Counted from the stretch's first letter, positions 37,721 to 42,214 are shown. The stretch: 64,000 nt of DNA from Thiotrichaceae bacterium (GCA_041940025.1 JBGTSY010000009.1:9110-73109); one strand, 5' to 3'. Notes: a model not told the origin generated them from the sequence alone. Translations and numbers: made by a program.

Positions 37721-38988
37721 GTTTCGTTTCTTACGCACAAAATTTTGAAGACGTGATGCTTTGGCGTGCACTCAAGCACATTGAGCAGGGTTTCTATATC
37801 GATGTTGGTGCCTGGTCGCCAGATATAGACTCCGTTACCTGCGCTTTTTATGAAAGAGGATGGCGTGGCATCAACTTAGAGCCCAATCCGGAATTTCATC
37901 AGCAACTTGAGACAAGTCGCCCCCGCGATCTCAACCTGAAACTGGCCATTAGCGATGCCGAAGGCATCATGACCATGAATTTTCTGGCGAATTCTGGCTT
38001 GTCCACACTCGATGATTCCATCGCGCAACGGCACCAGGCCGCAGGTTGGGAGGCATCTCGCCAGGAGGTGGCGGTCAAGACACTGGCCGCCATTTGGCAA
38101 CAGCATGTGCCCGACGGCCAGCCGGTCCATTTTTTGAAAGTGGATGTCGAAGGGTATGAGGCAGCCGCGCTTCGTGGTAACGACTGGTCGCGATTCCGCC
38201 CCTGGGTGGTCGTGGTTGAGGCCACCCTGCCCATGTCGCAGGTCGAATCCCATGCGGACTGGCAACCCTTCTTATTGGAAGCCAGGTACCAATTCGCTTA
38301 TGCCGACGGCCTCAACCGCTTTTATGTTGCCGAAGAACATGCCGATTTGATGTCCGCCTTTGAATATCCTCCGAATGTTTTCGACGAATTCATACTCGCG
38401 GCGCACCAACAGTCCGAGACACGGGCACAGCAAGCCGAGCATGCCGCCCAGCAGTCTGAGGCACGGGCACAGCAAGCCGAGCATGTCGCCCAACAGTCTG
38501 AGGCACGGGCACAACAGGCCGAGAATGCCGCTCAACAGTCTGAGGCACGAGCACAGCAGGCCGAGAATGCCGCCCACCAGTCAGAGGCCATGCTGAAATC
38601 CGTTATTAGCAGCAGCTCCTGGCGGATAACCGGGCCGTTACGCCTCCTAGTTAATGGGCTTCGTAGTCTGCGTCATGGAACAACAACACAGGCGCTCAAG
38701 GCTGCCTTGCGACCGCTGCTTGGGCACGTCATCAGCTTTGTCAGTGTCCGTCCTCGCCTTAAGAGAACCTTATTGGCGTGGGTGAGTAAACATCCACGCC
38801 TGGAGCAGAAATTGCGTCGGTTTGCCGCCGCGAGGAGGCTGGCAGGCACAGGGATCGGTCAGATACATATGCGCTTAGAACAGGCTCAATCCCCACCAAT
38901 TGAGTTGGCACACCTCACACCCCGGGCGCGCCAAATCTATGCGGATCTGAAAGCAGCCATAGAGAAAAACAATCAGGAGACCGCTTGA
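37717..38988 (+). CDS. FkbM-family methyltransferase with coiled-coil and helical tail (WbdD-like chain terminator candidate)
   Basis: 'SYAQNFEDVMLWRAL..GFYIDVGAW', 'FLKVDVEGYE', 'RFRPWVVVVEA'. Heptad repeats follow, then 'SSSWRITGPLR'. Confidence 0.88.
   Translation: MSFVSYAQNFEDVMLWRALKHIEQGFYIDVGAWSPDIDSVTCAFYERGWRGINLEPNPEFHQQLETSRPRDLNLKLAISDAEGIMTMNFLANSGLSTLDDSIAQRHQAAGWEASRQEVAVKTLAAIWQQHVPDGQPVHFLKVDVEGYEAAALRGNDWSRFRPWVVVVEATLPMSQVESHADWQPFLLEARYQFAYADGLNRFYVAEEHADLMSAFEYPPNVFDEFILAAHQQSETRAQQAEHAAQQSEARAQQAEHVAQQSEARAQQAENAAQQSEARAQQAENAAHQSEAMLKSVISSSSWRITGPLRLLVNGLRSLRHGTTTQALKAALRPLLGHVISFVSVRPRLKRTLLAWVSKHPRLEQKLRRFAAARRLAGTGIGQIHMRLEQAQSPPIELAHLTPRARQIYADLKAAIEKNNQETA
38407..38589 (+). 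repeat. Tandem 42-bp (14-aa) repeat, 4 full units plus a partial unit
   Basis: Units start at 38407, 38449, 38491 and 38533 and encode QQSE(T/A)RAQQAE(H/N)(A/V)A. A partial HQSEA follows. Confidence 0.95.
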
Positions 38989-41900
38989 TGCGCATTGTGA
39001 TTGATATGCAGGGTGCGCAGACAGCCAGCCGTTTTCGTGGCATTGGCCGTTACACCATGGCTTTTGCTCAGGCTGTGGTACGGAACCGAGGCGAACACGA
39101 AATCATCCTCGCCCTCTCGGGTCTATTTCCTGAAACCATCGAGCCCATTCGCGCCGCCTTCGACGGCCTGCTGCCGCAGGAGAATATCCGCACCTGGCAC
39201 GCGCCCGGTCCGGTGCAGGAGGCGCAACCCGGCAACGATGCCCGGCGCGAGGCGGCGGAACTCATCCGTGAAGCCTTTTTGGCCAACCTCCAGTCCGATG
39301 TCATCCATATCACAAGCCTGTTCGAGGGCTATGTGGACGATGCCGTCACCAGCATTGGCCGATTTGACAGTGCAATGCCGGTGAGCGTCATTCTGTATGA
39401 CCTCATTCCACTGCTGAATCCGGATCACTATTTAAGACCCAATCCACGTTACGAACAGTACTACCTACGCAAGGTCGAGTGCCTCAAGAAGGCGGCGCTG
39501 CATTTGGCGATTTCAGAGTTTTCCGGTCGGGAGGGTATAGACGTCCTCGGTACACCCGACGGTAAAACCATCACCATCTCCACGGCGCTGGATAGTCACT
39601 TCCAAGCCAAAACCATCAGAGACGAAACCGCCAGTGAACTCCGTGCCAGGTTCGGCATCACCAGGCCCTTCGTGCTCTACACCGGTGGTGCGGATGAGCG
39701 CAAGAACCTGCCGCGCCTGATCGAGGCTTACGCCGCGCTGCCAGCAAGCATTCGCGAGACTCATCAGCTGGTTTTTGCAGGTCAGATGCATGAGGTTAAA
39801 ATCGCGCAGTTCAAACACCGTGCCCGTTCAGTGGGGCTCAAGGATGACGAACTCGTTTCCACCGGGTATGTCACTGATGAAGATCTCGTCCAGCTTTATC
39901 ACCTCTGCCAACTCTACGTCTTCCCCTCATGGCACGAGGGCTTCGGTCTACCGGCGCTGGAGGCCATGGCCTGCGGTGCGCCTGTCATCGGGGCCAATAC
40001 CAGCAGCCTACCGGAGGTGATCGGATTCGAAGAGGCGCTCTTCGATCCGTTCGATGTCGAGGCCATCAGCGCCAAGCTCACCCAGGCGTTGGAAGATGAA
40101 GCATTTCGCAATCGCCTGCATGAACATGGCAAGAATCAAGCGGAGAAGTTTTCCTGGGACGATACCGCCAAACGCGCGATTGCAGCGTGGGAGAGCATGC
40201 CAGGCCGGAGTCAGGCAGAGTATCTGGACCGATCACTGGCCCACAACCGGCTTCTCGCAGCGCTCGCAAAACCGCTCGCGCACGCAGGCGAGCCCGAGTT
40301 GGTGGCGGTGTCGCATTGCGTCGCGCAAAACGAACGGGCAGGCATCGAACGCCAGTTACTGCTCGATGTCTCCGAACTGTGCCAGCATGATGCCGCCCAA
40401 CGGTCCGAGGCCATGCTGAATTCCGTTATCAGTAGCCGCTCTTGGCGGATCACTAGGCCGCTGCAAAAACTGATGCAACTGTTCAAATGCTTGTTTAGGC
40501 TTCCCGTTCGAATGGTTGTCGGTATGGTGCGATTGCCCAAAAGGGTCGCCCGGTGGTTTTTGACAAAGCTCATTGCCTTTGTAATGCGGCTTGACGGGCT
40601 CAAGCATCGCGCCCGGCGATGGCTTTATCGCTATCCGAGGCTGGAGGCACATCTGCTTGCCTTCGCCAGGGCGTGCGAGTTGATTCATGATCCAACGCCT
40701 GCCCCGTCACATCCGGCGGAGGCCGAAACCCTCACACCCCGGGCGCGGCAGATCTATGAGGACCTGAAAGCAGCCATTGAGAAAAACAAACAGGAGGCCG
40801 CTTGATGCGCATTGTGATTGATATGCAGGGTGCGCAGACCGAAAGTCGTTTTCGTGGCATTGGCCGTTACACCATGGCTTTTGCTCAGGCTGTGGTGCGG
40901 AATCGCGGCGAACACGAAATCATTCTCGCCCTCTCGGGTTTGTTTCCCGAAACCATCGAGCCCATCCGTGTCGCCGTCGACGGCCTGCTGCCGCAGGAGA
41001 ATATCCGCATCTGGCACGCGCCCGGCCCAGTGCAGGAGGGACAACCCGACAACGATGCCCGGCGCGAGGCGGCGGAACTCATCCGTGAAGCATTTTTGGC
41101 CAGCCTCCAGCCCGATGTTATCCATATCACAAGCCTGTTCGAAGGCTATGTGGACGATGCCGTTACCAGCATTGGCCGATTCGACACTGCAACGCCGGTG
41201 AGCATCATTCTGTATGATCTCATTCCACTGCTGAATCCGGATCACTATCTCAAGCCCAATCCACGTTACGAGCAGTACTACCTGCGCAAGGTCGAATACC
41301 TCAAAAAGGCGGCTCTGCATTTGGCCATCTCCGAGTTTAGCCGTCAGGAGGGCATAGACGCCCTCGGTTCCGCCGACGGTAAAACCATCGCTATCTCCAC
41401 GGCGCTGGATAGCCACTTCCAACCCCAAACCATCAGTGACAAAGCCGCCAGTCAACTCCGCGAAAAATTTGGCATCACCCGACCCTTCGTCCTCTACACC
41501 GGTGGTGCGGATGAGCGCAAGAATCTGCCGCGCCTGATCGAGGCTTACGCCGCGCTGCCCGCCAGCATGCGTAAGGTCCATCAGTTGCTCTTCGCCGGCA
41601 GGATGCCTGAAGGCGATATTGCACGCCTCAAGGATATTGCCCGCACCGCAGGCTTAAAGAGCGACGAACTCCTGTTCACCGGTTACGTCTCTGACGAAGA
41701 TCTGGTCCAGCTCTACAATCTCTGCCAGCTCTACGTCTTCCCCTCGTGGCACGAAGGCTTCGGTCTGCCGGCGCTTGAAGCCATGGCCTGCGGTGCGCCT
41801 GTCGTCGGCGCCAATACCAGCAGCCTGCCGGAGGTGATCGGATGCGAAGAGGCGCTGTTCGACCCGTTCGATGTCGGGGCTATTACCGCCAAGCTCACTC

Positions 41901-42214
41901 GGGCCTTGGAAGATCAAGTATTTCGCAATCGCCTGCGCGACCATGGCCTGAATCAAGCGAAGAAGTTTTGCTGGGACGAAACCGCCAAACGCGCGATTGC
42001 GGCGTGGGAGAGCATGCCAGGCCGGAGTCAAGCAGAGTATCTGGACCGATCACTGGCCCACAACCGGCTTCTCGCAGCGCTCGCAATACCGCTCGCGCAC
42101 GCTGGTGAACCCGAATTGGTGGCGTCGTCGCATTGTGTCGCGCAAAACGAAAGCACTGGCATCGAGCGCCAGTTATTTCTTGATGTTTCCGAACTGTGCC
42201 AGCATGACGCCGCC
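38575..42214 (+). repeat. Tandem duplication of about 1.82 kb (38575-40397 and 40398-42214)
   Basis: 38914-40397 aligns with 40731-42214 at a constant 1817-bp offset with high identity. The leading ~335 bp of each unit is more diverged but shares the SEAML-SVISS-SWRIT motif. Confidence 0.9.
38985..40805 (+). CDS. GT4 glycosyltransferase fused to a methyltransferase-type C-terminal tail (chimeric)
   Basis: 'RIVIDMQGAQT..RFRGIGRY' and 'FVFPSWHEGFGLPALEAMACG'-type motifs. The C-terminus 'QRSEAMLNSVISSRSWRIT...LTPRARQIYEDLKAAIEKNKQEAA' parallels the upstream methyltransferase tail. Confidence 0.9.
   Translation: MMRIVIDMQGAQTASRFRGIGRYTMAFAQAVVRNRGEHEIILALSGLFPETIEPIRAAFDGLLPQENIRTWHAPGPVQEAQPGNDARREAAELIREAFLANLQSDVIHITSLFEGYVDDAVTSIGRFDSAMPVSVILYDLIPLLNPDHYLRPNPRYEQYYLRKVECLKKAALHLAISEFSGREGIDVLGTPDGKTITISTALDSHFQAKTIRDETASELRARFGITRPFVLYTGGADERKNLPRLIEAYAALPASIRETHQLVFAGQMHEVKIAQFKHRARSVGLKDDELVSTGYVTDEDLVQLYHLCQLYVFPSWHEGFGLPALEAMACGAPVIGANTSSLPEVIGFEEALFDPFDVEAISAKLTQALEDEAFRNRLHEHGKNQAEKFSWDDTAKRAIAAWESMPGRSQAEYLDRSLAHNRLLAALAKPLAHAGEPELVAVSHCVAQNERAGIERQLLLDVSELCQHDAAQRSEAMLNSVISSRSWRITRPLQKLMQLFKCLFRLPVRMVVGMVRLPKRVARWFLTKLIAFVMRLDGLKHRARRWLYRYPRLEAHLLAFARACELIHDPTPAPSHPAEAETLTPRARQIYEDLKAAIEKNKQEAA

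What the first reader, a model, noticed from the sequence alone, without database searches (positions are those of the whole stretch)
38575..42214. A 1.82-kb tandem duplication created a chimeric gene: GT4 domain plus the methyltransferase's anchor tail
Seen in sequence: the duplicated unit spans the methyltransferase 3' end and the GT 5' end. The junction at ~40390-40400 joins GT 'CQHDAA' to 'QRSEAMLNSVISSRSWRIT' through microhomology between gagaATGCCGCCCA (repeat unit, ~38566) and gcatgATGCCGCCCA. The result is an intact 606-aa ORF with ATGA coupling on both sides, and the two copies have since diverged without stops or indels in the GT part. Inference: a new gene is under selection, possibly a second chain terminator or side-branch transferase tethered by the same tail.
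Basis: partly seen in the sequence, partly recalled or inferred. Interest (0 to 1): 0.75.

Follow-up and report, generated by a model that had tools for sequence, protein, structure and literature searches.

The report
Duplication-born glycosyltransferase with terminator's membrane tail
In the O-antigen operon of an uncultured gammaproteobacterium, a 1.8-kb tandem duplication fused the first sugar-adding module of the polymerase to the membrane-anchoring end of the chain-terminating enzyme; this gene layout was not found elsewhere, both copies look conserved, and its function is untested.

Summary
Copy 1 (38567-40389) and copy 2 (40390-~42206) are direct neighbours with one new in-frame junction at a 9-nt microhomology (ATGCCGCCC, 40390-40398). 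This gives a 605-aa gene (ATG 38988). It consists of a WbdA-N-like GT4 module plus linker (471 aa), then a 135-aa tail homologous to the C-terminal region of E. coli WbdD, which papers describe as membrane-binding and polymerase-recruiting.

Three syntenic relatives (L027, L026, L005; 70-85% nt) have a single copy with the layout terminator-coiled coil-tail then polymerase. None of 119 closest GT homologues, 93 full-length tail-bearing proteins or 15 genome loci joins a GT4 to this tail. So the chimera is derived and rare.

Both GT copies evolve under similar purifying selection (omega about 0.2; symmetric branch counts).

- Stop/start overlaps are TGATG, not ATGA.
- The two tails are not the same. 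Their middle ~90 codons are unalignable at nucleotide level. The chimera's tail matches the tail of the orthologous methyltransferase in L026.
- Chimera codons 248-305 are an imported patch, so divergence is mosaic.

Function is inferred: a ruler-less, self-anchored accessory module of the polymerase complex. This is a new variant of a known system, of moderate interest.

The parts
35700..36497 (+). wzm, ABC-2 permease of the O-polysaccharide exporter
   Evidence: Pfam ABC2_membrane, E 3e-26
36494..37720 (+). wzt, exporter ATPase with a C-terminal carbohydrate-binding module (Wzt_C). This module marks systems that export only end-capped chains.
   Evidence: Pfam ABC_tran + Wzt_C, E 3.5e-30; role of the CBM from PMC11231755
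37717..38988 (+). Chain terminator candidate: FkbM methyltransferase (aa 1-~230), a short coiled coil made of 42-nt repeats, and tail A (38575-38985)
   Evidence: Pfam Methyltransf_21, E 1e-28; TIGR01444; orthologue in L026
38406..38588 (+). 42-nt (14-aa, QQSEARAQQAE.AA) tandem repeat, 4.4 copies. It encodes the coiled-coil spacer. The left duplication breakpoint lies in its last unit, and the motif ATGCCGCC recurs at 38441 and 38567.
   Evidence: TRF score 275, 89% matches; the repeat finder D3; motif positions
38567..40389 (+). Duplication copy 1: tail A plus GT module D1 and linker
40390..42206 (+). Duplication copy 2: tail B plus module D1 and linker of the three-module polymerase
40390..40398 (+). 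The new junction: microhomology ATGCCGCCC, in frame (…CQHDAA|QRSEAML…)
   Evidence: three-way comparison
38988..40805 (+). Chimeric gene, 605 aa. GT4 module D1 plus inter-module linker plus the first strand of D2 (38988-40397), then tail B (40398-40802).
   Evidence: Pfam Glyco_transf_4 + Glycos_transf_1; 35% identity to E. coli WbdA 1-482; tail profile hit
39729..39902 (+). Imported patch in the chimera (codons 248-305): 68% identical to copy 2, and p-distance 0.24 from every sampled relative
40461..40729 (+). Middle of tail B. It is not alignable to tail A (38638-38912) and is 76% nt identical to the tail of the orthologous methyltransferase in L026. Predicted cationic amphipathic helices.
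38975..38979 (+). AGGAG ribosome-binding site inside the last codons of tail A, 8 nt before ATG 38988. The same arrangement occurs at 40792-40796 before ATG 40805, so the duplicated unit carried its own translation signals.
   Evidence: sequence
40805..44479 (+). Three-module GT4 polymerase (GT3, 1224 aa), WbdA-like. Modules D2 and D3 are older paralogues (53% aa).
   Evidence: Pfam, 3 Glycos_transf_1 stretches; 38% identity to E. coli WbdA over 827 aa; D2/D3

Best explanation
What it is. The window carries an ABC-transporter-dependent O-polysaccharide operon of the polymerase-terminator type: manB, wzm, wzt with a carbohydrate-binding module, a terminator, then a polymerase. This is the E. 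coli O8/O9a WbdD/WbdA scheme. It sits on a 56-60% GC island in a 43-48% GC genome of an uncultured gammaproteobacterium.

Origin (shown). The ancestral layout was FkbM methyltransferase - coiled coil - tail, followed by a translationally coupled multi-module GT4 polymerase. A microhomology-mediated tandem duplication of 1.82 kb (tail plus first polymerase module) joined the end of module D1 and its linker, in frame, to the start of a tail. The duplicated unit already held the ribosome-binding site and the TGATG stop/start overlap, so the new gene had translation signals from the start. Later, foreign DNA replaced chimera codons 248-305. It also replaced the middle of one of the two tails, most simply the methyltransferase's.

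How it works (inferred).
- The chimera is an intact GT4 transferase module of the WbdA-N type. It has no coiled-coil ruler and no terminating enzyme.
- It stops at the position aligned to E. coli WbdA residue 482. It therefore lacks the segment aligned to residues 548-568, which in E. coli WbdA binds WbdD.
- Instead it carries its own WbdD-type C-terminal region. In WbdD that region holds cationic amphipathic helices for membrane association and the site that recruits the polymerase.
- I propose that it sits at the membrane next to the polymerase as an accessory module and adds residues of the D1 linkage type. That would change the repeat unit or the primer/adaptor region.
- By occupying polymerase docking sites without a ruler, it would also shift chain length.
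For: Duplication and junction.

Ancestral single-copy layout:
- L027: 79-81% nt from manC to the end of GT3; both window copies map to its one gene.
- L026: orthologous FkbM MT, long coiled coil, B-type tail, then polymerase.
- L005: about 70% nt, same order, single copy.

Paralogy: outside the patch the two D1 copies are reciprocal nearest neighbours in 500/500 bootstraps (p-distance 0.10, vs 0.15-0.22 to L026/L027).

Rarity:
- 0 of 119 best GT homologues have tail motifs.
- Among 93 full-length tail proteins, 41 have a class-I methyltransferase domain, 27 an FkbM domain and none a GT4.
- In 15 genome loci the tail ORF is always followed by a WbdA-like gene and never contains a GT4.

Selection:
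- omega 0.195 between the GT copies.
- Branch counts outside the patch are symmetric.
- Three positions invariant in six relatives changed in each copy.
- An E-x7-E spacing (EGFGLPALE) is visible in the sequence; its identity as the GT4 motif is my knowledge.
- Tail B vs B-type terminator tails gives omega 0.23-0.31, the same as among real terminators.
- The flanking manC and an RND/MMPL transporter gene are broken, while all operon genes are intact.

Tail identity:
- The tail profile hits E. coli O9 WbdD residues 585-701 (SRSWRMT…EIYLKL), E 9e-13.
- WbdD's C-terminal region is described as a membrane-associated amphipathic helix plus a polymerase recruitment site (PMC11231755; PMC3482155).
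- AlphaFold2 predicts tail B as all-helical, pLDDT 82.
- Helices have hydrophobic moment 0.73-0.79 and net charge +5, and there is no transmembrane-grade segment.

Module identity:
- Chimera 1-482 aligns to E. coli WbdA 1-482 at 35%.
- WbdA-N makes the 1,2 linkages, and one substitution in it changes repeat-unit size. The WbdD-binding segment lies in WbdA-C at 548-568 (PMC5529442).
Against: - There are no reads, transcripts or chemistry. Expression and activity are inferred only.
- There is a single occurrence, on one MAG contig. Sister assemblies of the same species break before or after the region (L006 ends at 37772, L010 at about 38580, L009 starts at 43908). The junction has therefore not been seen independently.
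- manC upstream is a pseudogene in all three assemblies. GDP-mannose supply must come from elsewhere, or the pathway may be declining.
- Changes unique to tail B are somewhat rich in replacements (21 nonsynonymous, 13 synonymous).
- Pairwise omega cannot separate constraint on the chimera from constraint on its partner. The branch counts are small.
- The sugar and linkage made by D1 are not known. Several relatives carry gmd/rmd next to the polymerase, which in P. syringae/P. aeruginosa loci are the D-rhamnose genes (PMC7820976). 'Mannosyl' therefore rests on manB/manC and the absence of gmd/rmd here.
Confidence: 0.6

Rival explanations
1. Same architecture, different origin. There was no in-situ duplication followed by divergence. 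Instead, a single illegitimate crossover occurred between two already diverged versions of the operon, for example a resident and an incoming allele. It joined D1 of one to the tail and polymerase of the other. The 12% divergence and the different tails then predate the junction.
For: - The operon is a recombination hot spot in this population. L006 is 99.9% identical up to 37772 and then carries a different MT allele. L010 carries a different Wzt CBM and an extra FkbM gene.
- The tails belong to different subtypes.
- dS is uneven.
- In codons 120-180, GT3 is closer to L026 than to the chimera.
- TET-type operons are known to be shuffled by recombination (PMC7820976).
Against: - Outside one patch the two D1 copies are each other's nearest relatives in 500/500 bootstraps.
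- The first ~24 tail codons (SEAML.SVISS.SWRIT) are shared by tails A and B and by no sampled relative.
- The last 75 nt plus the 5' end of D1 are 92-94% identical.
- These points fit copies that began identical and were later patched. The rival would need two very similar alleles that differ in exactly the patched segments.
Confidence: 0.2
2. Metagenome assembly artefact: two strain variants of one region were stitched in tandem on the MAG contig.
For: - The window comes from one 95.7-kb NCBI MAG contig.
- The chimera and GT3 proteins occur on no other contig.
- Sister assemblies break around the region.
- Strain-level variants of the operon do exist.
Against: - The junction shares only 9 nt with either parent. 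By my knowledge of assemblers, graph paths need overlaps far longer than that.
- The junction is in frame and sits at a domain boundary.
- The tail after the junction keeps a 135-codon open frame with terminator-like constraint.
- The second copy is preceded by a complete tail with ribosome-binding site and TGATG overlap, as in every natural locus.
Confidence: 0.07
3. The duplication is real but functionally neutral or decaying. The chimera is a tolerated by-product that does nothing useful, or only titrates partners.
For: - Single occurrence.
- The neighbouring manC and RND genes are pseudogenes, so this genome tolerates decay.
- Slight excess of replacements on the tail B branch.
Against: - dS of at least 0.15-0.4 has accumulated without any stop or frameshift in 605 codons.
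- Substitution counts are as constrained as in the essential polymerase copy.
- Both imported patches kept the frame.
Confidence: 0.13

Closest known systems
E. coli O8/O9a (= K. pneumoniae O5/O3) WbdA polymerase and WbdD terminator
   Same: - Same operon logic: manCB, wzm, wzt with CBM, terminator, then a multi-module GT4 polymerase.
- GT3 is 38% identical to WbdA over 827 aa, and the chimera 35% over residues 1-482.
- The tail profile hits WbdD 585-701.
- A coiled coil lies between the catalytic domain and the tail in the terminator.
   Different: - Here the terminator is an FkbM methyltransferase, not a class-I methyltransferase or methyltransferase-kinase.
- No wbdB/wbdC adaptor genes lie in the cluster.
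- There is an extra gene in which a WbdA-N-type module is fused directly to a WbdD-type tail, with no coiled coil and no terminating enzyme. I found no description of this arrangement in the papers read.
K. pneumoniae O12 WbbB and O7 ORF6: GT modules and terminator in one coiled-coil protein (PMC11231755)
   Same: GT modules and terminator-type parts share one polypeptide. That paper describes the distribution of polymerase modules among proteins as flexible.
   Different: Those proteins keep the coiled-coil ruler and an N-terminal terminating enzyme, and their GT modules belong to other families. The chimera has neither ruler nor terminator and uses a GT4 module.
Pseudomonas syringae TET operon (wzm-wzt-wbdD-wbdA) of the common polysaccharide antigen (PMC7820976)
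   Same: The same gene set is treated as a shuffled, horizontally exchanged cassette that sets LPS type. Here too, sister genomes differ in exactly this block.
   Different: Variation there is by cassette exchange. 'Duplicat*' has no occurrence in that paper's text.
Other glycosyltransferase-plus-tail proteins in the tail family (one GT8, one Gly_transf_sug, one Caps_synth among 93 representatives)
   Same: They show the tail can carry a glycosyltransferase instead of a methyltransferase.
   Different: They use other GT families. I did not check whether they have a coiled coil or act as terminators. None has a WbdA-type GT4 module.

Membership tests
WbdA-type GT4 polymerase module | GT-B fold with GT4 signatures in both lobes | tested here: met
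   Pfam Glyco_transf_4 (aa 18-203) and Glycos_transf_1 (aa 226-384, E 1.4e-32). The best PDB sequence matches are GT4 enzymes such as MshA, WaaG and PimB.
WbdA-type GT4 polymerase module | Sequence homology to characterised WbdA | tested here: met
   BLASTP chimera 1-482 vs E. coli WbdA 1-482: 35% identity, E 6e-99. GT3 vs WbdA: 38% over 827 aa.
WbdA-type GT4 polymerase module | Two or three GT modules in one polypeptide, one per linkage type | tested here: not met
   The chimera has one module only. The junction falls 14 residues into module 2. GT3 next door has three.
WbdA-type GT4 polymerase module | GDP-mannose-dependent mannosyl transfer | not testable with these tools
   Only context is available: manB and a manC remnant upstream, and no gmd/rmd in the cluster.
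WbdD-type terminator | C-terminal region homologous to WbdD 585-708 (SxSWRxT … IYxxLK) | tested here: met
   A profile of 40 tails hits E. coli WbdD 585-701, E 9e-13. The family has 5656 representatives, and the domain is C-terminal in every listed hit.
WbdD-type terminator | Extended coiled coil between the catalytic domain and the tail | tested here: not met
   In the chimera the GT linker joins the tail directly at 40390-40398. The 42-nt repeat coiled coil stays in the methyltransferase gene.
WbdD-type terminator | N-terminal chain-terminating enzyme (methyltransferase, kinase or terminating GT) | tested here: not met
   The N-terminal part is a polymerase-type GT4 module, 86% identical to module 1 of GT3. 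None of 93 tail proteins has a GT4.
WbdD-type terminator | Membrane association and polymerase recruitment by the tail | not testable with these tools
   Consistent with an all-helical model and cationic amphipathic helices. No binding or localisation data.
ABC-transporter-dependent, end-capped O-polysaccharide pathway | wzm, wzt with a C-terminal CBM, terminator and polymerase in one operon | tested here: met
   Pfam ABC2_membrane, ABC_tran + Wzt_C, Methyltransf_21, and Glycos_transf_1 three times. The genes overlap.
Tandem duplication | Two adjacent direct copies, period equal to unit length, one novel junction, single copy in relatives | tested here: met

The most novel reading that the evidence does not exclude
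The chimera is a ruler-less docking platform. It carries the terminator's polymerase-recruiting tail but no terminator. It pulls part of the polymerase pool away from the methyltransferase and adds its own module-1 activity. The cell would then make a second O-polysaccharide population with a different length or repeat unit from one operon. This would be a natural case of a new assembly-complex subunit arising in one step by duplication across a gene boundary.
Probability: 0.15. Interest if true: 0.7.

Novelty: new variant of a known kind. Interest (0 to 1): 0.5.

Why it matters
Papers on polymerase-terminator O-antigen systems state that the terminator's C-terminal region anchors the complex and recruits the polymerase, and that occupancy of that site and the coiled-coil length set chain length (PMC11231755). 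A natural protein that puts a polymerase module on that region without the ruler tests those statements directly. The operon could be cloned with and without the gene, and the glycan and its length read out.

It is also a clear example of gene birth. One microhomology-mediated duplication across a gene boundary produced an in-frame, already translatable two-part protein, and later recombination reshaped both copies. The limits are that it occurs once, in an uncultured organism, and that nothing about expression or chemistry is known.

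Tried and rejected
- Exact look-ups of the chimera and the methyltransferase on other contigs found nothing.
- A genome-contig scan with the linker-plus-tail peptide found no relative. The second scan, with the tail alignment, used one narrow pattern and gave only 15 loci. The species itself is not in that collection.
- The tail search in the search for homologous proteins returned only short proteins of 80-226 aa and not even the window's own proteins. I did not use it for the architecture census and used the representative search instead.
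- Two attempts to build one alignment with both GT and tail homologues aligned to the chimera failed. MAFFT placed the tails over the GT columns. The full chimera was therefore not modelled; only the tail was. The tail model has pTM 0.34, so I ran no fold search.
- The PDB has no sequence relative of the tail.
- The promoter/terminator scan of 33000-45500 gave counts at shuffle level.
- Rejected: that the GT-tail layout is ancestral or widespread, and that the two tails are simple diverged copies.
- PntB gave no named close relative: 94% and 87%, then about 75% to Pseudomonadales and other gammaproteobacterial MAGs. No species name or known O-antigen structure could be attached.

Full report
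**1. The region**

The + strand carries, with overlapping stops and starts:
- manB (34333-35703)
- wzm (35700-36497)
- wzt with a Wzt_C carbohydrate-binding module (36494-37720)
- an FkbM methyltransferase of 423 aa (37717-38988)
- a 605/606-aa GT4 protein (38988-40805)
- a 1224-aa protein with three GT4 modules (40805-44479)

GC is 54-62% in all but one 400-nt window from about 35600 to 44400, against 43-48% around it. This is the polymerase-terminator, ABC-transporter-dependent O-polysaccharide scheme known from E. coli O8/O9a (PMC11231755; PMC3482155).

The window comes from a 95.7-kb NCBI contig. The organism is an uncultured gammaproteobacterium. Its PntB has relatives at 94% and 87%, then only about 75% to Pseudomonadales and other MAGs.

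**2. The observation**

- Self-BLASTN aligns 38913-40404 with 40730-42220 (87.8%, 1497 nt) and 38567-38637 with 40390-40460 (84.5%). Spacings are 1817 and 1823 nt. Two direct copies therefore abut at 40389/40390.
- In a three-way comparison the chimera follows the GT copy up to 40389 and the methyltransferase tail from 40399. Only ATGCCGCCC (MT and chimera) / ACGCCGCC (GT3) is common to all.
- The motif ATGCCGCC is part of the 42-nt repeat that encodes the methyltransferase's coiled coil (38406-38588, 4.4 copies). It also occurs at 38441.
- The GT parts align over 471 codons with no gap or stop.
- All homologues start MRIVIDMQG, so the start is ATG 38988. The overlaps are TGATG, not ATGA. An AGGAG lies 8 nt upstream inside the last tail codons, in both copies.

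**3. What the two halves are**

The N-terminal 471 residues have both GT4 lobes. They are 35% identical to E. coli WbdA residues 1-482. In WbdA that part is the module that makes the 1,2 linkages. A single substitution in it changes the repeat-unit size, and the WbdD-binding segment lies further on, at 548-568 (PMC5529442). The chimera stops short of the aligned position of that segment.

The C-terminal 135 residues belong to a very large family: 5656 representatives at E ≤ 1e-3, and the domain is C-terminal in every listed hit. The family shares the motifs SxSWRITxPLR, RRPxLK and LTPRARQIYADLKAAIE. A profile of 40 tails hits E. coli O9 WbdD at 585-701 with E 9e-13. This is the region described as holding the membrane-associated amphipathic helix and the polymerase recruitment site. 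AlphaFold2 models tail B as helices only (pLDDT 82, pTM 0.34). Its helices are strongly amphipathic and cationic, and none is hydrophobic enough to span a membrane.

**4. Ancestral or derived?**

Three syntenic relatives are single-copy:
- L027 is 79-81% identical from manC to the end of the polymerase. Both window copies map onto its one gene.
- L026 has the orthologous FkbM methyltransferase, a long coiled coil, a tail, and then the polymerase.
- L005 (about 70%) has the same order.

In 15 genome loci the tail ORF is always followed directly by a WbdA-like gene and never contains a GT4. Of 93 full-length tail proteins, 41 have a class-I methyltransferase domain, 27 have an FkbM domain, a few have other enzymes, and none has a GT4. 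None of the 119 best GT homologues carries tail motifs. The layout is therefore derived and, so far, unique.

**5. History of the copies**

- Outside one patch the two D1 copies are reciprocal nearest neighbours in 500/500 bootstraps (p-distance 0.10, vs 0.15-0.22 to L026/L027). They are paralogues formed after the split from the L026 and L027 lineages.
- Divergence is not uniform. dS runs from 0.15 to 1.3.
- Chimera codons 248-305 (39729-39902) are 68% identical to copy 2 and equally far (0.24) from every relative. Copy 2 in that stretch is 0.10 from L027. The high dS with omega 0.15 points to import from an unsampled lineage, not to adaptive change.
- In codons 120-180, GT3 is nearer to L026 (0.078) than to the chimera (0.106).
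- The tails share their first ~24 codons (85% nt) and last ~25 codons (92%; 84% over the last 27 codons). Their middles are unrelated at the nucleotide level (40%). The middle of tail B is 72-79% identical to the terminator tails of L026, L002 and L001.
- The orthologous methyltransferase in L026 carries a B-type tail. The simplest reading is that both copies began B-type and the methyltransferase's tail middle was later replaced. The opposite direction cannot be excluded.
- Sister assemblies show that such exchanges are ongoing. L006 is 99.9% identical up to 37772 and then has another methyltransferase allele. L010 has another Wzt CBM and an extra FkbM gene.

**6. Selection**

- Omega between the GT copies is 0.195.
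- With L027 as outgroup and the patch removed, the chimera branch has 23 synonymous and 19 nonsynonymous changes, and the GT3 branch has 30 and 26.
- Each copy has three changes at positions invariant in six relatives.
- Tail B against B-type terminator tails gives omega 0.23-0.31, the same as among real terminators.
- Next to the operon, manC and an RND/MMPL transporter gene are broken in independent assemblies, while all six operon genes are intact.

**7. Mechanism (inference)**

A lone D1 module would lack the segment that, in E. coli, ties WbdA to WbdD. The fusion gives it the terminator's own membrane-binding and polymerase-recruiting region, without the coiled-coil spacer that keeps the terminating enzyme away from the membrane.

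I therefore favour an accessory, membrane-proximal transferase that joins the polymerase complex. It would add D1-type linkages to the repeat unit or primer region and, by taking up docking sites, influence chain length. A ruler-type terminator role is less likely, because the ruler is missing and the Wzt CBM presumably reads the methyl cap. None of this is tested.

**8. Artefact check**

The junction shares 9 nt with each parent, the copies differ by 12%, and the longest shared exact stretch is 55 nt. By my knowledge of assemblers, a stitching error would need a much longer overlap. However, no independent assembly covers 38.6-43.9 kb, so read-level confirmation is still needed.

**9. Verdict**

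This is a real chimeric gene in a known kind of system, born by duplication and maintained by purifying selection, with an arrangement of modules not found in any of the sets searched. The details on the tails, the coupling and 'simple divergence' need correcting, and the function is open.

Noticed in passing
window 38406-38588; also L027 5365-6804, L005 ~5400-5700, L012: The terminator's coiled-coil spacer is encoded by short tandem DNA repeats: 42 nt x 4.4 here, AEAKAEQ x6 in L027, AETKAQQ x4 in L005, and a 14-aa unit x5 in an Acidithiobacillus protein. L026 instead has a long non-repetitive coiled coil. Repeat slippage could change the ruler length, and so the chain length, in steps.
   Followed up: partly
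window ~32900-34145 (ORFs 33206-33901 and 33894-34145); L006 7930-8886; L010 801-2196: manC (GDP-mannose pyrophosphorylase) is split into at least three fragments and lacks its C-terminal end. The same breaks appear in two other assemblies, so it is a real pseudogene directly upstream of an otherwise intact mannose-type operon. Nucleotide similarity to L027 starts at 33972, inside manC.
   Followed up: partly
window 44536-46888 (- strand); L009 629-2978: An RND/MMPL-type transporter gene is broken into five ORFs (139, 148, 123, 120, 237 aa). This is reproduced at 100% identity in an independent Logan assembly, so it is a real pseudogene at the right edge of the high-GC island.
   Followed up: partly
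L006 12673-12727 vs window 37772 onward; L010 5142-6420 vs window 37290-37707: Near-identical sister genomes differ inside this operon. GCA_041941165.1 switches to another FkbM allele 55 nt into the gene. ERR4801157 has a different Wzt carbohydrate-binding domain plus an extra 286-aa FkbM methyltransferase, followed by the window's methyltransferase at 97.7%. This looks like serotype-like polymorphism within one species.
   Followed up: partly
window 42167-44479 (modules 2 and 3 of GT3): Modules 2 and 3 of the polymerase are themselves paralogues (53% aa over 368 residues, spacing 1149-1152 nt). Each starts with the same RQL(L/F)xD(V/I)SEL motif that lies just before the new junction. The region aligns to L027, so this is an older event of the same kind.
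   Followed up: partly
L001 1-851; L028 6208-7102 (E. coli NDM6): In two unrelated loci an insertion sequence has cut the terminator gene and left only its tail directly upstream of the polymerase: an IS5-like fragment in L001, and IS1 in an E. coli O9-type cluster that leaves a 61-aa WbdD remnant.
   Followed up: no
window 27198-31746: Upstream of the operon lie an 804-aa VanZ-domain protein and a 658-aa acyltransferase_3/SGNH protein, which by my knowledge looks like an OafA-type O-acetylase. Either could modify the same glycan.
   Followed up: no
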